The position numbers and the translations under genes are program-made. A stretch of 64,000 nt of DNA, from positions 18,910,001 to 18,974,000 of the forward strand of contig OX597837.1 in the NCBI GenBank assembly GCA_951406725.2, given 5' to 3'. The first letter of the stretch is position 1, and the number at the start of each line of letters is the position of its first letter. The DNA is from Octopus vulgaris. Taxonomy: Eukaryota. The notes under the pieces were generated by a model, which was given only the letters and a program-made list of their open reading frames with translations, was not told where the DNA came from and searched no databases. This document shows positions 14,470-58,040 of the stretch, piece by piece.

Positions 14470-15282
14470 GGAATTTCCAGTTGTCCTCTATGTCTGAATT
14501 TGTAGCTCCTCCTCTCTCTCATCGAATTTCTCAGTCAGGAGGTCCCTAAATATCTGACTTTGTGAGGGGTTCTTTAGCTTCCAAATCCTTCTCTTCTGGA
14601 TTAGTTTACTTCTTGGCATCCTTCTGACCTCGAGTCTAAAGTCACTAATAACTAGTCTATGCTGGGGGGGGGGGTACATTCTTCACCAGAGCGGGCCTTT
14701 GTATTTAAGAGTAACCATGCATCCTGCTGTCTGGTGAGGATAAAATCAATCTGGCTAGCAGAGTCACCTGATTTATAGGTTATCAGGAGGCTGTTTGGCT
14801 TCCTGAAGTTAGTGCTGCAGATTAATAGGTTGCATGCATCACAGAATTCCAGTAGCCTAGTTCCTTCTTTGTTTCGAGAACCAATTTCATGGCCCTCATG
14901 AACACCATGGAAGATACTAGATTGCCATCCAAAATGCCTATTAAAATCTCCAGCCACAAAGATGAGGTCATTGTCACTTGTCTTTGAGGTAGCCTGCAGA
15001 AGGGTATCATAAAAGTGGTCCTTCTGATCGTTTGGTAGGTCTGCTTGTTGGGTGTGGGTAGAGATAATTGTAGCTATATTATTCTGCAGGACTAGCCTAA
15101 GCTTAAGTACTCTATCACATACCCTAACTACCTCTATAACCTTATCTACCAATTTCTCCGCAAGGAGTATACCTACACTCCCTACACCATCACTGTTACC
15201 TTCCCAGAAGATTTTATACCTCTGTGCCTTACCTGTGAGGACCCTGGATGACACTCCTCTCCACCTTACCTCTTGTATGCAG

Positions 15283-15285
<3 letters not shown>
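14470..15285 (-). mobile_element. RTE-clade LINE fragment, apurinic-like endonuclease domain
   Basis: Motifs CCIQEVRWRG, GVGSVGILL, FVAGDFN, NFRK..LITYKSG and SQIDFIL, followed after a frameshift by QHRLVISDF. Confidence 0.88.
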
Positions 15286-15318
<33 letters not shown>

Positions 15319-15601
15319 ATGTTGATAACAAAGAAGAGAATGGAGATTTTATACACATCCCAAAATTTCTTTATTTAAAAATTTTCCACACCATATATAT
15401 CTAACCTACATATATTCCGACTGCAGTGACTGCACATCACTTTGTATGCAATTATGCATTTTAGTTGTTGCAATTTCATCAAATGTTTTCAAAGTGAACT
15501 GATTGTGGATAGATGGCAGTTAAACCAATATGAGAGATAATACCACCAGGATAATTTATTCCTCATATGTATGTATATATATTTATGTATGTATGTATGT
15601 A

Positions 15602-28289: not shown

Positions 28290-30238
28290 CAGAATTAATC
28301 TATGTACAGTGTGACAGAAGTTTTAAAAAATAGCAAATTAGAAAGGACCGGGCCCGGATGGAGTTCAAGGCTATTAGCTGAAGAATTTTACACAGTTGCA
28401 TGAAAAGATTATTGTGCAACTGGATGACTTTATGCAGCAAGGTCACATTCCTGCCTGGATGACAAGTGGATGAATGCTGCCATGTTTCAAGGATCCCTTC
28501 AAAGGGAACTTGGCATCAAATTTTCGACCTATTACCTGTTTGCCACTTGTGTGGAAGCTTATGACCAGTGGAAGGGTTAGACACCCATCTGCAAAGTAAC
28601 AATCTACTACCAGAAGAACAGAGAGGATACAGGAAAGAGGGTAGGGCAACAAAAAATCACTTATTACTTGATAAAATGACAATTAGAAACTGTAGACACA
28701 GATTGACAAGACTGAATGTAGCATGGCTAGATTACAAAAAAGTATATGACATGGTACCTCACAGTTGGATAGGTAAACCAATGAGCATGTTTGAAATAGC
28801 AAAAAACATAGAGAAAATGCTTAATGAAAGTATGAAACATTGGAATACTGAATTGATTGGAGGAAAACAAAAACTCGGAAAAGGAACATCAGAGATGGAA
28901 TATTCCAAGGTGATAGCTTATCTCCATTACTATTCGTATTGGTCATGTCATCACTCATTAAGATACTATGAAAAGTTAAAATTGCTTATGGTTTTGGATA
29001 ATTAAATGGTCAGATAAATCATCTCCTTTTCATGGATGATATAAAGGTTTATGTGGAAAGGGAGAAACAGCTTGGAAGTCTTGTACATACTATCTGCATT
29101 TTCTCAAAGGACATAAGTTTGAGATAGAAAAGTTTACTATATTGAAAATGAAATGAAGAAGATTTGGAAGAAGCCAGAGAATTGAAATGCCAAATGGACG
29201 AACAATGAGAGCAATTGAGAAAGGATAGTGGTATAAGTACTTAGGAATACTGGAAGCAGGCGAAATAAAAGAATGAAGAAATGAAATCAATGACCAGTAG
29301 GGAGTACACAAGGAGAGTAAGAAAATTATTGCAGTCAGAGCTGAATTCAATAAATATTATTGAAGTAATAAATTCAAGAGCAGTACCCTTAATTGGATAT
29401 GGAGTTGGAATTATAGGGCCAAAAATGATATAAAGTAACTTGCCAGAAAAATTAGAAAGTTGTTGACAATGTATGGAGCCTACCATTTGAAAGCTGAGAC
29501 CAAGATGGAAGAGGTTTAATAGCAATAGAAGAATGTGTGCAGATGGAAAGAAAAGGTGTAGTAGAGTATTTACAGAGCAGTACAAAAAAACTACTAAAGA
29601 CAATAAATAAAGAACAATTGATCAAGTGCATAATAGGAGAAAAGGACAAGAATGAAACACAAAGAGAGCCCGTCAGACATGAAGAGAAACCTCTGCATGG
29701 CCAATTTTGGAGAGCCACTGAAGGCGGAACAAAATTCTGGGCTTGGTTAAAAAAAGGGGCAATTAAGGTAGAGTCTAATTGTAGCAGCCCAAGATCAAAT
29801 GATAAAAACAAACAACTTGAGAAAAAAATAATAATGGAGAGAATGTGTCGGAAAGATGTAGAGCCTATGGAACTTGGAATGAGACAGTGGCACACATTGT
29901 GACAGAATGCTTCAAGTTGGCACAAAAAAGAGTATGAAAAAAAAAATGGTTTTGGAAGGGTGATGCCTACCCTGCATAGAGATGGAGTTACTCTGGCTGT
30001 CACTGCTTTTCCATGTCACAAAGGCAGGGATTATAGATCTTTTATCTTTTATGAATCTCAGTTATTGGACTGTGGCCATGCTGGGGCACTGCTTTGAAAG
30101 GTTCAATTGAATAAATCAACTCCAGTACTTATCTTTTTAAGCTTAGTACTTATTCTATCAGTCTCTTTTGCCAATCCACTAAGTTATGGGGGACACAAAC
30201 AAACTAATACCAGTCGTCGAATGTTGATGAGTGACAAA

Positions 30239-40170: not shown

Positions 40171-41752
40171 GCACTGGTGAGTTGATAACATTAACTTGAA
40201 TATTTTGCACAAAATAATATACTATACTAAAATAGTATTTAACATTTTATATCATTTGTTATAGTTTAGCCCCAGGTCAGCCCTGATGGAACTGGTCTAG
40301 AACCAAAGCTATTCAAGCTGTGACCACCCCGTGTTTTTGTTTTTATCTAGTGACAATATTGGCTGATGTATCCTGTATTTGAGACAGCAGAATGTGGTTT
40401 TGAGGGAAATTTAGATGCTATTTCTAGCAGATCATTCCTCATCTCACATAGAGATTCCATTGTTAACTTGTTTTCAGTGTTGTTGTTGTTGCTGCTGCTT
40501 AACTCTAGGTCAATCCTGATCAAGGGAATTTCTTATAAAAAATAACTCAAGCCATAACTATCCTTACTTTCTCTCAGGCCTTGTGTATATATAATATATA
40601 ATGAAATTATTGTATGCAGTGCCCAGGTGCACCACAACTAGGACTCATTATCCAATGTATCCCATCCTTTTCAAGATGTGTAATTTAGCAGCAGTTAAAT
40701 CTTGCTTAAATTAAGGTGTAATTTAAAGAAGATTTGACTGCTGTTTCAAGCAATTAGAATGATCATGTGAAGATATCCTCTGGTTTTCATTGGTGTACAA
40801 AGTATTGTCTTTTAATGTGCTAAGAAAGTTGTATTAAATCTATGTTGTTGTGGGTGTTTATTTTATCAGTTCTTGTGTTATTCTATTTTGCTTGTTTATG
40901 ATATTTTGAGGTGAGTTTATTGAGCGTGTTATAGTACTGAGAGAGCACTGTCTATGTGTTTAGGCTTAAGTGAGCGTCTTTTACAATAGCCCTGGGCCGA
41001 CCAATACTTTGTGGGTCAATTTGGTAAATGGAAACTGCTTAGAAGCTTATTTTGATCCTTATTGTCTCAATCACACAAAGCATACAGACCACTTGTGATC
41101 CCGAGATACCTGCTGAAGATATAAAAGGTTTCTGACAAAGAGATAAATTTAGTCACAATAAGAAGAGCTTGCAACATCCATTATGCAGCTACTGCACCTT
41201 GAGCATGAAGTAAAGCATCTTTGATGTTTATTTCCCCACCTGTACATATAATAGATAATGATGATGATAATTGTGATGATATATTTATATATAATCAAAA
41301 TTATCATCATCTTTTTAATGTCCACATTTCTTGTTTACATTGGGTTGGACAGTTTGAAAAGGATCCAGTGAGTTCAGGGACTTTATCATACTCTAGTATC
41401 AGCTTTGGCATGGTTTCTATGGCCGGATGCCCTTCCTAACACCAACCCCTTCACAGTGTGTACTGAGTGCTTTTTTGTGCTACTTACACTATTGAGGTCA
41501 CCCTGTAGCTTGTAAGCCAACAACCCCAGGGGGCGAGGAAGTTGCATTTGTATGCTAAATGGTGGTTAAGAGCAGATTCTTGTTGATTCTTATTTACAAA
41601 ATAAATATAAGAGAGTGGTCACTATATGGCTCACTCTAGCACCAGTTAATCCAAAAGGTTTCAACCACAAAAATACATGCTTCCCATGAAAGTCAGTACG
41701 ATTGTTAGCTCACACGGACAGGGCAAATAAAAAATAACAAAAATACAGATTA

Positions 41753-41834
41753 TTTTGGGACAATTGTTTCGCTATTAATGAATTAAATGTAATTTTACTT
41801 ACAAAAAAATCCACTTGTAGCTCGTCAGCCAAAA
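41753..41834 (-). ncRNA. Canonical type-I hammerhead ribozyme (inverted copy)
   Basis: Reverse complement of 42192-42273. Confidence 0.85.
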
Positions 41835-42191
41835 CTATCTGGATGAAATCCACTCAATCACACGCCAGATTTTACCATAACGATAAATACGCGTGTGGTT
41901 CAATTGATTACATCCGACGTTATAATTCAAATGCCCCAACTAACAGCGCGCCAAACTTTCACGGAAAACAAATACAGCATTTAGAAATAAATGCAGCATA
42001 ATTATAATTAATTAATAAGGGTGAGAGAATTAGATACTAATTTAATAGTATATCTATTCAACACCAAGTGGCCTAGTGCTCCGAGAAACCTGGATTTGAA
42101 TTATAACGTCGGATGTAATCAATTGAACCACACGCGTATTTATCGTTATGGTAAAATCTGGCGTGTGATTGAGTGGATTTCATCCAGATAG

Positions 42192-42273
42192 TTTTGGCTG
42201 ACGAGCTACAAGTGGATTTTTTTGTAAGTAAAATTACATTTAATTCATTAATAGCGAAACAATTGTCCCAAAA
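42192..42273 (+). ncRNA. Canonical type-I hammerhead ribozyme
   Basis: TTTTGG-CTGACGA-GCTA...TAGC-GAA-ACAATTGT-C-CCAAAA. Stem I is 6 bp and extendable, the core is fully conserved, G10.1-C11.1 is present, stem III is palindromic and the GUC cleavage site follows 42267. Confidence 0.85.
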
Positions 42274-42554
42274 TAATCTGTATTTTTGTTATTTTTTATT
42301 TGCCCTGTCCGTGTGAGCTAACAATCGTACTGACTTTCATGGGAAGCATGTATTTTTGTGGTTGAAACCTTTTGGATTAACTGGTGCTAGAGTGAGCCAT
42401 ATAGTGACCACTCTCTTATATTTATTTTGTAAAAATATTATAATATATTACAAAATATTATAATAATCCAGGTTTCTCGGAGCACTAGGCCACTTGGTGT
42501 TGAATAGATATACTATTAAATTAGTATCTAATTCTCTCACCCTTATTAATTAAT

Positions 42555-42605
<51 letters not shown>

Positions 42606-43768
42606 CATGGCTGTGTGGTAAAAAGCTTGCTTCCCAACCATATGGTTCCTGGTTCAGTCCCACTGTGTGGCACCTTGGGATAGTGTCTTCTGCTATAGCC
42701 CTGGGCTGACCAAGGTTTTGTGAGTGGATTTGGCAGAGACTGAAAGAAGCCGTCATACACACACACATAAAAACATCTTTGTGTGTCTTTGTTTGCTCCC
42801 CCCCCCCCCACTATCGCTTGACAACCAATGCTGGTGTTTCTACATCCCTGTAACTTAGCAGTTTGGTAAAAGAGACTGATAGAATAAGTACTAAGCTTTC
42901 AAAGATTAAGTCCTGGGGTTGGTGCTCCTGCATGGCCGCAGTCAAATGATTGAAACAAGTAAAAGAATAAAAGAAAAAGAATACATAGATATTCATTTAT
43001 TTCTGTCTCTCCTTCTCTCTCCCTCTCTCTCTCTCTATGTTCGTGTGTCTGTGTCTGTATCTATGTATACACTCATACATATACATACTTATTTATATAC
43101 ACCTATCCATTTGCATACATATACATGTGTGCTTGTTTGTGTGTGAAAAGTGTGTGCATGCTAACACGTTTCTTTACATTTCTTAGACCAATGAAATCTG
43201 TAAAATATGTTACTCTTTACTTGGAAAAGGCCAAAATATTTTGAAAATGAAAGAGTCTGACATTCAGTTTATTATCTATATTTATATATATCTATATGTG
43301 TCTGTCTGAAACTGATAAACTAAATACAATTCATGATAAAATTTTGCCATTTTATTTTGATTAAAATATCTTCTACTGCAGTTCTCCTGCACTTAGCGTC
43401 CCTGGCTCTCACTCATTCTACACTTCATTTGTTGTTTCACCCTTCTTCATCCATTGCATTTTATTATATGGAAGATATGCTCTACACCTCTTTATCTCTC
43501 TCTCTCTCTCACTTTCTATACATGCGTGTATATGTATCTCTTTTTTTTTCTCTTTTATTTGTTTCAGTAATTTGACTGTGGCCATGCTGGAGCACCGCCT
43601 TTAGTCAAGCAAATCAACCCCAGGACTTATTCTTTCTAAGCCTAATACTTATTCTATCAGTCTCTTTTGGCAAACCGCTAAGTTACGTGGACGTTAACAC
43701 ACCGGCATTGGTTGTCAAGCGATGTTGGGGGGACAAACACAGACTCACAAACATTTACACACACATAC

Positions 43769-43826
<58 letters not shown>

Positions 43827-44407
43827 TACACTCTCGGAGTGGTTGGCGTTAGGAAGGGCATCCAGCTGTAGAAACTCTGCCAAATCAAGATTGGAGCCTG
43901 GTGCAGCCATCTGGTTTGCCAGTCCTCAGTCAAATCGTCCAACCCATGCTAGCATGGAAAGCGGACGTTAAATGACGATGATGATGATGATATATATATA
44001 TATATATACATACATATATACGATGGGCTTCTTTCAGTTTCTGTCTACCAAATTCACTCACGAGAGACTTTGGTCAGCCAGAGGCTGTAGTAAAAGATAC
44101 TTGCCCAAGGTGCCACGCAGTGGAAATGAACCTGGAACCATGTGGTTGGTAAGAAAGCTGCTTACCACTATATATATATTTTTTATTCTTTTATTCTTTT
44201 ACTTGTTTCAGTCATTTGAGTGCAGTCATGCTGGAGCACCACCTTTAGTCAAACAAATTGACCCCAGGTCTTATTCTTTGTAAGCCTAGTATTTATACTA
44301 TCAGTCTTTCTGCCAAACCGCTAAGTTATGGGGACATAAAAACACCAACATCGGTCGTCAAGCGATGGTGGGGCAACAAACACAGACACACAAATACATA
44401 TACATAC

Positions 44408-44456
<49 letters not shown>

Positions 44457-44523
44457 CATACATACATACATATATATATATATATACATACATACATACA
44501 TACATATATACATATATATATAC

Positions 44524-44615
<92 letters not shown>

Positions 44616-44621
<6 letters not shown>

Positions 44622-45315
44622 TAGTAATGCAATACTAGAGTATTGCTTTCCAGTAAAGAATAGCCCGTGAGGGAAAAATATACAAAGAAGTAAATATATG
44701 GCACAACGAAGTACCGATATTTACTGGAAATAGCGAACGTAATAATACGACGCTAATGTATAGCTTCACCGCGTATGTACTAGCAAAAATGCGTGAGTGC
44801 AACAAGCTTGAAAAAAATTGTCTTACCTCCAGGGAGAACATCTGAAAGATGAAATACCTAGAAAAGGATAATGTGGGACCGGCGCCGGTTTCAGATTTTT
44901 CAAGATATGTCTGCACCCATAAACTTGATCTATCTTCATCAGCCAAACATATACCACGACAACATTTCAGATGTTACCACATTAATGCCAATACACTCGA
45001 CTGAAACGCCGAAATGCTAACAGAACGAGAACGGTGAAGAAGTTTCAATAAATTAGTAATGCAATACTAGAGTATTGCTTTCCAGTAAAGAATAGCCCGT
45101 GAGGGAAAAATATACAAAGAAGTAAATATATGGCACAACATTATCCTTTTCAGATGTTCTCCCTGGAGGTAAGACAATTTTTTCAAGTTTGTTGCACTCA
45201 CGCATTTTTGCTAGTACATACGCGGTGAAGCTATACATTAGCGTCGTATTATTACATTCGCTATTTCCAGTAAATATCGGTACTTCGTTGTGCCATATAT
45301 TTACTTCTTTGTATA
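44616..45315. mobile_element. Young Penelope-like/retrozyme-like insertion in (TA)n with a 92-bp direct repeat and an inverted partial copy
   Basis: 44616-44707 equals 45048-45139 (period 432 nt). 45138-45315 is the reverse complement of about 44677-44874 with a small deletion. (TA)n lies on both sides. Confidence 0.8.
44871..44950 (-). ncRNA. Canonical type-I hammerhead ribozyme
   Basis: Minus strand: ATGTTTGG-CTGATGA-AGAT..TCAAG...CTTGA..ATCT-GAA-ACCGGCGCCGGT-C-CCACAT, with a GUC site and a 12-nt palindromic stem III. Confidence 0.85.
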
Positions 45316-45359
45316 TATATATATATATATATATATACATACATATATGTGTATATATA

Positions 45360-45468
<109 letters not shown>

Positions 45469-45469
45469 C

Positions 45470-45531
<62 letters not shown>

Positions 45532-46194
45532 CATACACATATGCACAATAGGCTTCTTTCAGTTTCCGTCTACCAAATCCACTCACAAGGGTTTGGTTGG
45601 CCTGAGGCTATAGTAGAAGACACTTGCCCAAAGTGCCATGCAGTTGGACTGAATTCAGAACCATTTGGTTGGGAAGCAAGATTCTTACCACACAGCTGTG
45701 TGTGTGTGTGCATGTCTCCTTGTTCTGATATAATGTGCAATTTATAAACAAGTGCCATCATTATTGTACAAGAGGCATTTTTTGCTGGAAATCTTCCATG
45801 GAAACATGTCTGGTCATTGTTCAGTTTGTGTTTGGAAGACTAGAGGAGATATTGCCTTACCTGGAAGCAGGTGAGAGTTGGCAACTGGACGAGCATCTGG
45901 TTGTAGAAAATCTCCCTCAATAAATTTTGCCTCATCTATGCCAGATCTGAGTTTGAGACATGATTTGTGTTGATGAATTTGAAAGTGTCTTGTGTAGAAT
46001 GTGTTGTACTTTTCTGGAACTTCCTAATAGCTTTGTGGATTACATTAATAAAAGCTTTCTGAGATTATTATAGAGATGCTTTCTTTTTGTGTTTGAATTA
46101 TAATAATCTTCTTTTAGACTACTTATCATCTAGAATTCTAGTATTTACTATTCTATTCTTTGTTTTTTGTTTTTTTCTTCATTATTTTGTTCTT

Positions 46195-56514: not shown

Positions 56515-58040
56515 CACCTCTGCTACTAACTTGGTCACCTAGATAGCGGAAACTATCTACTACCTCTAGCTTACCCACCTGTCAGTTGATGAAGTCTATT
56601 TTCTGGACATTTTTGGTGTTTATTGTACCTGTGCATCTTCCACACACAAAAGCTATTTTCCCTATTAAACTTCCTCTGATATTGCAACACATCTTACACT
56701 GGGTACATCTTATGGAGTTTCTACTTATGCCTTTTCTAGAGATTGAGCAGGGCCATCTAATTGAAGGGATTTGTGATTTGTCTGCCTTCCTACTTACTAA
56801 AATTTTGGTTTTTGCTAGGTTAACTCTAAGGCCCTTCGATTCTAAACCTTGCTTCCATACCTGAGATTTCTCTAGTTCTGGTAGTGATTCAGCTATAAGA
56901 ATAAGGTCATCAGCATAGAGGAGCTCCCAGGGACAGCTTGTCTTAAATTCCTCTGTTATTGTCTGGAGGATTATGATGAACAAGAAGGGGATGAGGACTG
57001 ATCCTTGGTGAACACTACTGCTCTCAATTCTTCACTGTACTCATTGCCAATCCTCAACTTATTGATAATGCCCCTGTACATGGCTTGTACAGCTCTCACC
57101 AATCACTCATCTATCTCTAGTTTTTACATTGGGGAAACTAGGGATAGATGACATTGTCAAAGGCTTTCTCCATGTTAACAGTCAAGTGCAGAAGTTTATA
57201 TTTGGCTATGTATTTCTCCTGCAGCTTCCTTGCCAGAAATATAGCATCAGTGGTGCTTCTCCCTGGTATAAAACCAAACTGTATCTCATCTAAACTAACC
57301 TTTTAATTAGTTGGGCTATGACCCTCTCCATAACTTTCAACACCTAATCCAACAATTTAATACCTCTGTAATTACTTCTATCTAGGGTATCACATTTACC
57401 TTTGTAGTAGTTGACTATGGTGCTGCTACACCAATCATCGAGTATGACTTGTTTGTGAACCACCTGATTTACAATATGGGTGACTAGATATTTTAAGCAT
57501 CTTAACAGGGATTCCTGATGGATTGGAAGTTTTCCCTATTTTCATATCCTTAAATGCTTTATCAACCAAGGTACTGTTGATTCAGATAGCGGGTCCCTCA
57601 CTTGGGTCAACATTTGGCAGACTCTCCTCCTCCTCCCATTCATTCTCCATGTCCAGCAGTTTTTCATAATGGCATTTCCAAGCCTCTTTCTTTACAGAAT
57701 CATTAAACACAAGGGCATCATCATCTATGTTGACACATTTCTCTCCTATGACATCACAATTTTCTCTCACACACTGTCTTGAAATCTGAAACACGTCAAA
57801 TCTTTGGTTCTCATGTCGCTAAACATAAGTAAACTTCTTTTCTCTCTTCTCCCTTGACTAGATATACCTGTCTCCTAGCTTCCCTTCTGGCTATCTGATA
57901 CAGTTCCCTGCTATCCCCACTCTTCCAGGCCTGTTTCTGTGCTCTAATGGCTTGTTTACAGCATTGTTCCACCACCACGTCACCCTAGGTCTGCATTGGA
58001 CTTTGCACCAGCTGCAGATTTGGTCTGTGGCACTCAGCAA
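56515..58040 (-). mobile_element. RTE-clade LINE RT region, decayed
   Basis: Motifs KEAWKCHYEKLL, NYRGIKLLD, QFGFIPGRSTTDAIF, VHQGSVLIP, WELLYADDL and FRYLGD. Confidence 0.9.

What the first reader, a model, noticed from the sequence alone, without database searches (positions are those of the whole stretch)
44616..45315. HHR element whose inverted copy starts about 2 nt from the ribozyme cleavage site
Seen in the sequence: a 432-nt non-coding unit with a 92-bp terminal redundancy carries a canonical minus-strand hammerhead (GUC, cleavage between plus positions 44877 and 44876). The adjoining inverted copy begins at 45138 with ACATTATCC, matching 44874, only 2 nt into the predicted 3' cleavage product CCACAUUAUCC. 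Inference: the reverse transcriptase ran to the 5' end of a ribozyme-cleaved RNA and then switched template. That would be a genomic footprint of in vivo self-cleavage. The GC-rich 12-nt palindromic stem III could fold as a monomer or as a dimer.
Basis: partly seen in the sequence, partly recalled or inferred. Interest (0 to 1): 0.8.

Follow-up and report, generated by a model that had tools for sequence, protein, structure and literature searches.

The report
Penelope-type ribozyme repeat, back-to-back insertion
This is one copy of a common non-coding jumping repeat of a known kind that carries a predicted self-cutting RNA motif; one of its two back-to-back arms ends 2-4 letters from the predicted cut, which would mean that the cut RNA was copied into the genome, but none of the six other inverted junctions that could be seen ends there.

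Summary
The element is a 432-nt non-coding unit with a type I hammerhead, inserted in (TA)n as two head-to-head arms, one with a 62-nt tail. This is the known layout of Penelope-like elements and non-LTR retrozymes. Family contigs show tandem units, two shared 3' ends (44616-18, 44678) and stem III variants that stay palindromic. Priming from both target strands fits better than one template switch. The cleavage footprint is unproven. For: summed contig depth falls 3-11-fold just 3' of the cut in 6 of 6 runs. Against: contig fragmentation can mimic that fall; 0 of 6 other inversion joints end at +1..+5; the long arm, and both arms of a second hammerhead element 2 kb away, read through the cut. 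The scan noted such elements before on other DNA of this and another genome. New member of a known kind; about even odds that this junction records cleavage.

The parts
44616..45139 (-). Long arm, 524 nt = 1.21 units; RNA sense on the minus strand; 3' end joined to (TA)n; reads through an intact hammerhead and the head-to-tail joint
44616..45047 (-). 432-nt repeat unit, 38.4% GC, longest ATG-started ORF in the long arm 68 codons
   Evidence: head-to-tail joint 45047 to 44616 in family contigs, tables 5 and 5c
45048..45139 (-). 92-nt terminal redundancy (partial tandem, pseudo-LTR-like); its inner end lies 29 nt past the position where the short arm was primed
44871..44950 (-). Type I hammerhead motif: stem I 44950-44943 with 44876-44871, core 44942-44936, long stem II 44935-44893, GAAA 44892-44889, stem III 44889-44878, predicted cut 44877/44876
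   Evidence: cleavage not tested
44878..44889 (-). 12-nt palindromic stem III; family variants change a G-C pair to U-A or shorten the palindrome to 10 or 6 nt
   Evidence: tables 3, 4, 7
44616..44677 (-). 62-nt tail present on the long arm only, lying between the two family-wide 3' ends
   Evidence: (table 7, X2 44678; table 5c)
45138..45316 (+). Short inverted arm = RNA positions +3 to +199 from the cut, with a 17-nt skip, a 1-nt indel and 2 substitutions against the long arm; 3' end merges into (TA)n through 5 shared letters
45138..45139 (.). Head-to-head junction with a 2-nt microhomology (AC)
44400..44615 (.). Left (TA)n/(TACA)n microsatellite target (outer limit approximate)
45317..45530 (.). 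Right (TA)n microsatellite target (outer limit approximate); a target-site duplication cannot be read
41593..42558 (.). Second, sequence-unrelated hammerhead element in the same head-to-head layout; both arms carry the whole ribozyme (cut 42267/42268 on +); in-window control, not part of the finding

Best explanation
This is a non-coding, hammerhead-bearing 432-nt repeat inserted as two head-to-head arms in a (TA)n run, likely pasted by a Penelope-type enzyme that primed on both target strands of one longer-than-unit RNA, with the short arm probably running off at the RNA's ribozyme-cut 5' end. Shown: the arms, the tandem unit, the motif, the two family-wide 3' ends 62 nt apart, the 2-nt microhomology. 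Inferred: (1) a tandem locus is transcribed into a multimer whose first hammerhead has cut and whose next one has not; (2) one nicked strand primes at the tail end (44616) of the second unit and is extended 524 nt through the uncut ribozyme until just past the other primer; (3) the other nicked strand primes at 44678 of the first unit and is extended, with one 17-nt microhomology jump, to within 2-4 nt of the cut end; (4) the two cDNA ends anneal by 2 nt and are filled in. My odds: class of element 0.9; two-sided priming 0.75; run-off at the cut end about 0.45-0.5.
For: Layout (partial tandem, inverted 5'-truncated copy, tail on one end, (TA)n target) is that published for Penelope-like elements (PMC8557442; PMC3846280). 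A purified Penelope protein cuts and extends both target strands and starts at two internal RNA sites that bound the tail (PMC11167929). The short arm's outer end 44678 is joined to (TA)n in 19 contigs of run X2 (table 7). Both arms carry A44796, where 89-97% of summed depth in 4 of 4 runs shows T, so they share one source lineage (table 3). The long arm's inner end is 29 nt from the short arm's priming site; 4 of 6 other inversion joints also have an end within 35 nt of 44678 (P = 0.07). Best single step in log depth lies at 44856-44871 in 4 of 4 runs, left/right ratio 3.1-8.9; at 4-nt resolution depth falls 3.1-11.2-fold and levels off at 44864-44875 in 4 of 4 runs, two of them new. Only 1 of 12 ends of other inversion joints lies upstream of the cut. 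Stem III shows a compensatory pair change and palindrome-keeping deletions.
Against: 0 of 6 other inversion joints (0 of 12 ends) lie at +1..+5; the nearest plain breakpoint is +6. Summed contig depth is not copy number: if the left side were broken into single 31-mers, peak/31 would about equal the depth across the ribozyme in 2 of 4 runs (X4 6318 vs 6471; X11 776 vs 946), and a step fits clearly better than a steady decline in only 1 of 4 runs. The link to the cut rests on 14 nt behind a 17-nt skip that no run lists. The long arm, one family joint (45030) and both arms of the second element read through a ribozyme. The active fold is 5.0 kcal/mol above the minimum. In the anole Penelope element, dead-ribozyme mutants insert normally in vitro and no RNA-seq reads began or ended at the cut. 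No autonomous partner was identified.
Confidence: 0.5

Rival explanations
1. Same element and same two-sided priming, but on uncut or re-ligated circular RNA; the short arm stopped near the cut by chance, as 5' truncation can occur anywhere.
For: 0 of 12 other joint ends at +1..+5, and ends are spread over 44662-44858 and 45030. Read-through in the long arm and in both arms of the second element. Uncut RNA is the main substrate in vitro for the anole element. A 2% coincidence is expected somewhere among the many hammerhead elements that the scan read in this genome (262 of 453 notes fit the look-up).
Against: Depth levels off within 12 nt of the cut in 4 of 4 zoomed runs and stays low to 45047 although that side has as many listed variant sites (18 of 38 rows on 171 of 432 nt). 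All 6 visible breakpoints in 44826-44915 lie 3' of the cut (3 of 3 if run X1 is dropped; 12 of 36 loose ends not shown).
Confidence: 0.33
2. The short arm, or only its last 14 nt, was copied from DNA: the long cDNA folded back on itself by 2 nt and was extended, or the 14-nt piece is a templated patch added during end joining. The ribozyme then plays no part in the junction.
For: Fold-back yields the same sequence as the short arm (sequence). Self-priming has been proposed for inverted Penelope repeats (PMC3846280). The 17-nt skip is private to this arm.
Against: The arm ends at 44678, a family-wide 3' end joined to (TA)n, which is more simply a priming site. The junction is not palindromic, unlike the cases in PMC3846280. 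The short arm has the family base at 44806 where the long arm has a private one, which is neutral if that change came after insertion.
Confidence: 0.12
3. One reading: one reverse transcriptase ran to the cleaved 5' end and switched template to continue.
For: The short arm does end 2-4 nt from the cut and joins the long arm by microhomology.
Against: The strand that leaves the short arm continues as RNA-sense sequence, so the second template would have to be antisense RNA or the other cDNA; the far end (44616) is itself a family-wide 3' end next to (TA)n. Annealing to the other cDNA is the two-primer model.
Confidence: 0.05

Closest known systems
Metazoan non-LTR retrozymes (Cervera and de la Pena 2020, PMC7229834, passages read; Li, Clavereau and Pollet 2026, bioRxiv 10.64898/2026.07.22.740005, part 1 of 5 and passages read)
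   Same: Non-coding tandem unit of 150-450 bp, GC under 50%, one type I hammerhead per unit, proposed origin from Penelope terminal repeats.
   Different: Only one ribozyme at this locus (1.21 units), an inverted arm and a tail; stem II is long; circular RNA and cleavage are untested here. The word 'inverted' has 0 occurrences in PMC7229834 and occurs in the preprint only in a reference title.
Endonuclease-positive Penelope-like elements (Craig 2021, PMC8557442; Arkhipova 2013, PMC3846280; Cervera 2014, PMC4209133; Frangieh 2024, PMC11167929)
   Same: Partial tandem, inverted 5'-truncated copy, tail at one end, (TA)n target, hammerhead with palindromic helix III, two internal start sites.
   Different: No RT or GIY-YIG ORF; tail of 62 nt against 30-40 bp; helix III forms a 4-bp hairpin as a monomer; an inversion point at the ribozyme cut is not described in the passages read.
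L1 twin priming (Ostertag and Kazazian 2001; seen only as described in the review PMC9148063)
   Same: Two target ends prime on one RNA and give a 5' inversion joined to the direct part.
   Different: Both starts here are internal, structured sites rather than a poly(A) tail, and the direct arm is longer than one unit.
R2 retrotransposons with HDV-like ribozymes (Eickbush 2013, PMC3774820, abstract read)
   Same: Ribozyme cleavage site can set the 5' junction of genomic copies, with chance microhomologies at the joint.
   Different: Different ribozyme and enzyme; in R2 the link is demonstrated, here it is one junction plus a confounded depth profile.

Membership tests
Type I hammerhead ribozyme | Core CUGANGA, GAAA and NUH in type I order | tested here: met
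   0 of 3000 controls
Type I hammerhead ribozyme | Three helices can form around the core | tested here: met
   constrained fold -16.1 kcal/mol, but 5.0 above the minimum-energy fold; stem II closes with A-U, not the usual G-C
Type I hammerhead ribozyme | Covariation among copies | tested here: met
   G44881T and C44886A at similar depth in 4 of 4 runs; 2- and 6-nt deletions keep the palindrome; none of 38 listed substitutions hits the core, which alone is not significant
Type I hammerhead ribozyme | Match to an Rfam hammerhead model | tested here: not met
   no hammerhead hit at gathering score or E up to 10; the 43-nt stem II is a likely reason (inference)
Type I hammerhead ribozyme | Self-cleavage | not testable with these tools
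   needs an assay
Non-LTR retrozyme | Non-coding unit of 150-450 bp, GC under 50% | tested here: met
   432 nt, 38.4% GC, longest ATG ORF 68 codons
Non-LTR retrozyme | Head-to-tail tandem organisation | tested here: met
   1.21 units here; exact joint 45047 to 44616 in 3 of 4 runs and a near-identical joint in 4 of 4 (tables 5, 5c)
Non-LTR retrozyme | At least two consecutive ribozyme-bearing units ('active' copy of Li 2026) | tested here: not met
   one hammerhead at this locus; family arrays cannot be sized from short contigs; such copies are classed as monomers in that paper
Non-LTR retrozyme | Expression as cleaved linear and circular RNA | not testable with these tools
   contigs cannot show RNA ends, strand or circles
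Penelope-like element insertion | Partial tandem plus inverted 5'-truncated copy | tested here: met
   definition
Penelope-like element insertion | Tail on one end only | tested here: met
   62 nt (44616-44677), longer than the 30-40 bp reported
Penelope-like element insertion | Microsatellite target | tested here: met
   (TA)n on both sides
Penelope-like element (autonomous) | ORF with RT and GIY-YIG endonuclease | tested here: not met
   no ORF in the element; no GIY-YIG hit among 14 of 27 window ORFs scanned; partner not identified
Cleavage-defined 5' junction (as in R2) | 5' ends of copies pile up at the cut | tested here: inconclusive
   0 of 6 other inversion joints at +1..+5; depth fall beside the cut in 6 of 6 runs but confounded

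The most novel reading that the evidence does not exclude
The hammerhead cut is the in vivo 5' boundary of the RNA that Penelope enzymes copy: a large share of this family's copies stop at or just short of the cut, and this insertion records one multimer RNA with a cut first ribozyme and an uncut second one, copied from both target strands at once. That would be genomic evidence that Penelope-type hammerheads cleave in the germline and shape insertions, against the in vitro finding that cleavage is dispensable.
Probability: 0.35. Interest if true: 0.7.

Novelty: new member of a known kind. Interest (0 to 1): 0.38.

Why it matters
The role of hammerheads in Penelope-like elements is open: Craig 2021 calls it unclear, Cervera 2014 notes the lack of in vivo evidence, and Frangieh 2024 found cleavage unnecessary in vitro. 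A young, abundant family with fixed start points lets the question be tested by counting 5' ends in an assembly. The element itself is an ordinary member of a known class.

Tried and rejected
No whole genome is held for this window, so copies could not be collected from an assembly. BLAST of the element against the window finds no other copy. Rfam: no hammerhead. Metagenome scans: 0 matches for a 25-nt pattern; 7 loci for a gapped core pattern, none similar to the unit by BLAST, dropped. Sequencing-run search: no RNA holder listed. Scan notes by sequence and near this place: none. Pfam on 14 of 27 ORFs: one endonuclease/phosphatase-family fragment and two RT fragments elsewhere in the window, no GIY-YIG. 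Unconstrained folding of the ribozyme region is no better than shuffles (z 0.02). Loose ends at 44880, 44882, 44885 and 44914 were read as sequence variants, not breakpoints. The X1 loose end at 44849 is doubtful because its letters are the reverse complement of those at 44821 (linker-like), so X1's single-contig breakpoints (44841, 44858) are doubtful too. PMC5850863 (Terminons) is not held, so its treatment of cleavage sites is unseen. A novel ribozyme class was considered and rejected: the core is canonical.

Full report
Observation. The window is repeat-rich animal DNA (earlier scan notes call the genome octopus or cephalopod; I did not check this). Between two (TA)n runs lies a 701-nt insertion. 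A 92-nt direct repeat at 44616 and 45048 defines a 432-nt unit. On the minus strand the unit carries CUGAUGA (44942-44936), GAAA (44892-44889) and GUC, with the predicted cut at 44877/44876. A scan that asks for all three stems hits the real unit and 0 of 3000 Markov-1 controls. Rfam does not recognise it, and the active fold (-16.1 kcal/mol) lies 5.0 above the minimum-energy fold of the fragment. The 12-nt stem III is a perfect palindrome: hairpin -3.3, self-duplex -26.5 kcal/mol.

The inverted arm 45138-45316 matches the minus strand from 44874 to 44678. Its first two letters also end the long arm, so it starts 2-4 nt from the cut. After 10-14 nt it skips 17 nt across a 4-nt microhomology, so the link to the cut rests on a 14-nt piece. 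If ends were uniform on the unit, one of two would fall at +1..+5 with probability 0.023; this copy was, however, picked for that coincidence.

What it is. In RNA terms the two arms are head to head, with both 3' ends in (TA)n and a 62-nt tail on one arm only. Partial tandems, an adjoining inverted 5'-truncated copy, a one-sided tail and a (TA)n bias are the published layout of Penelope-like elements (PMC8557442, passages; PMC3846280, passages). Their hammerheads often have a palindromic helix III, and pairs on opposite strands 100-700 bp apart were noted in 2014 (PMC4209133, parts 1-2 of 4). A non-coding tandem unit of 150-450 bp with a type I hammerhead is a non-LTR retrozyme (PMC7229834, passages), a class recently tied to Penelope terminal repeats (bioRxiv 10.64898/2026.07.22.740005, part 1 of 5 and passages; supplements not seen). 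The unit has 38.4% GC and no long ORF.

Family data. No genome is held. Twenty of 24 listed runs, from 10 studies, hold the stretch or part of it; one may be the window's own source. I laid contigs of 6 runs from 5 studies and 4 organism labels. The head-to-tail joint is present in 3 of 4 runs exactly and in 4 of 4 in a near-identical form. (TA)n joins at 44678 in 19 contigs of X2, the same end as the short arm. In stem III, G44881T and C44886A occur at similar depth in 4 of 4 runs and turn a G-C pair into U-A; deletions of 2 and 6 nt leave shorter palindromes. None of the 38 listed substitutions hits the core, though that alone could be chance. The ribozyme fold is thus likely under selection. 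Both arms share a base at 44796 that is rare in the family, and each has one private change in the shared part, so this is one fairly young event.

Mechanism. A single polymerase switching template would need an opposite-polarity template after the junction. Two primers fit better: the anole Penelope protein cuts and extends both target strands and starts at two internal sites that bound the tail (PMC11167929, parts 1-2 of 4). The long arm's inner end (+170) lies 29 nt past the short arm's priming site (+199), as in L1 twin priming (seen only through a review passage). Four of 6 other inversion joints also have an end within 35 nt of 44678 (P = 0.07), which is only suggestive. My recorded reading did not name twin priming; earlier scan notes on other families of this genome do, and I use that wording, having tested it only as far as stated here. 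On one RNA, this geometry asks for a linear multimer that begins at or before +3 and holds an uncut ribozyme further in. A cut first ribozyme would explain where the short arm stops.

Test of the cleavage footprint. For: the best single step in log depth lies at 44856-44871 in 4 of 4 runs, with left/right ratios of 3.1-8.9. At 4-nt resolution depth falls 3.1-11.2-fold and levels off at 44864-44875 in 4 of 4 runs. The low side is not less variable (18 of 38 variant rows on 171 of 432 nt). All 6 visible breakpoints in 44826-44915 lie 3' of the cut (44829, 44841, 44849, 44858 twice, 44871; P = 0.033), or 3 of 3 without run X1, whose single-contig ends may be library chimeras. One of 12 ends of other inversion joints lies upstream of the cut; in the unzoomed set alone it is 1 of 8 (P = 0.11).

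Against: the tool warns that summed contig depth is no copy number. Full fragmentation of the left side would reproduce the step in 2 of 4 runs, and a step beats a steady decline clearly in only 1 of 4. None of the 6 other inversion joints (44788/44841, 44725/44712, 44741/45030, 44670/44697, 44829/44662, 44858/44667; five mapped by eye from loose or intervening letters) has an end at +1..+5. The nearest plain breakpoint is +6. With 0 of 6 the 95% upper bound is 0.39, and only 24 of 208 and 24 of 36 loose ends were shown. The 17-nt skip is listed in no run. The long arm reads through an intact ribozyme. So do both arms of a second hammerhead element at 41593-42558, whose junction near 42094 is 174 nt upstream of its cut. 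In the anole element, ribozyme-dead RNA inserts normally in vitro and no RNA-seq read began or ended at the cut (its Fig. S2B not seen).

Novelty. The class and layout are known. That a ribozyme cut can set 5' junctions is shown for R2 (PMC3774820, abstract). I found no paper reporting it for Penelope-type hammerheads in five searches, a library that lacks most subscription journals and the Terminon paper. The scan has noted the same idea before: one note from another genome found the coincidence not repeated in other copies, and one from this genome reports many shortened copies starting at the cut in a different family; both are unchecked.

Verdict. A new member of a known kind. The single junction is a real but unproven hint, about even odds, and the family offers a clean genome-wide test. 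Interest 0.38.

Noticed in passing
window 41593-42558: A second hammerhead element, unrelated in sequence apart from a 31-nt 74% match near the 3' start, in the same head-to-head layout: 340-nt arms 100% identical, 8-nt palindromic stem III, long stem II, 3-nt junction microhomology, both arms reading through the ribozyme.
   Followed up: partly
window 44637-44730, minus strand: An 11-bp stem encloses three small hairpins; the short arm's outer end (44678) lies at the base of the middle one, and a further hairpin precedes the long arm's end. A candidate binding and start structure for the enzyme.
   Followed up: partly
run X4, contig leaving the unit at window 45028: A 346-nt contig (depth 299) matches 44946-45028 and then continues with 263 other letters: possibly a longer relative or the autonomous partner (table 8).
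   Followed up: no
window 44788/44841 (runs X1, X2): One inversion joint has depth 488 and 256, well above single-copy contigs, so an inverted structure may itself have been amplified.
   Followed up: no
run X1, loose ends at window 44821 and 44849: The same 19 letters appear in both orientations, like a library linker; this run may hold ligation chimeras.
   Followed up: partly
window 44877 (run X4 loose end at 44885): A subfamily with the 6-nt stem III appears to have A in place of C at the cleavage position, still an allowed NUH triplet.
   Followed up: no
window 14655-15374 (-), 28565-29002 (+), 56585-57031 (-): Fragments of other retroelements: one endonuclease/phosphatase-family ORF piece and two RT pieces.
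   Followed up: no
window 43529-44469, 43990-44168, 45515-45691: Diverged (80-85%) interspersed repeats, SINE-like by recall, flank the microsatellites on both sides of the insertion.
   Followed up: no
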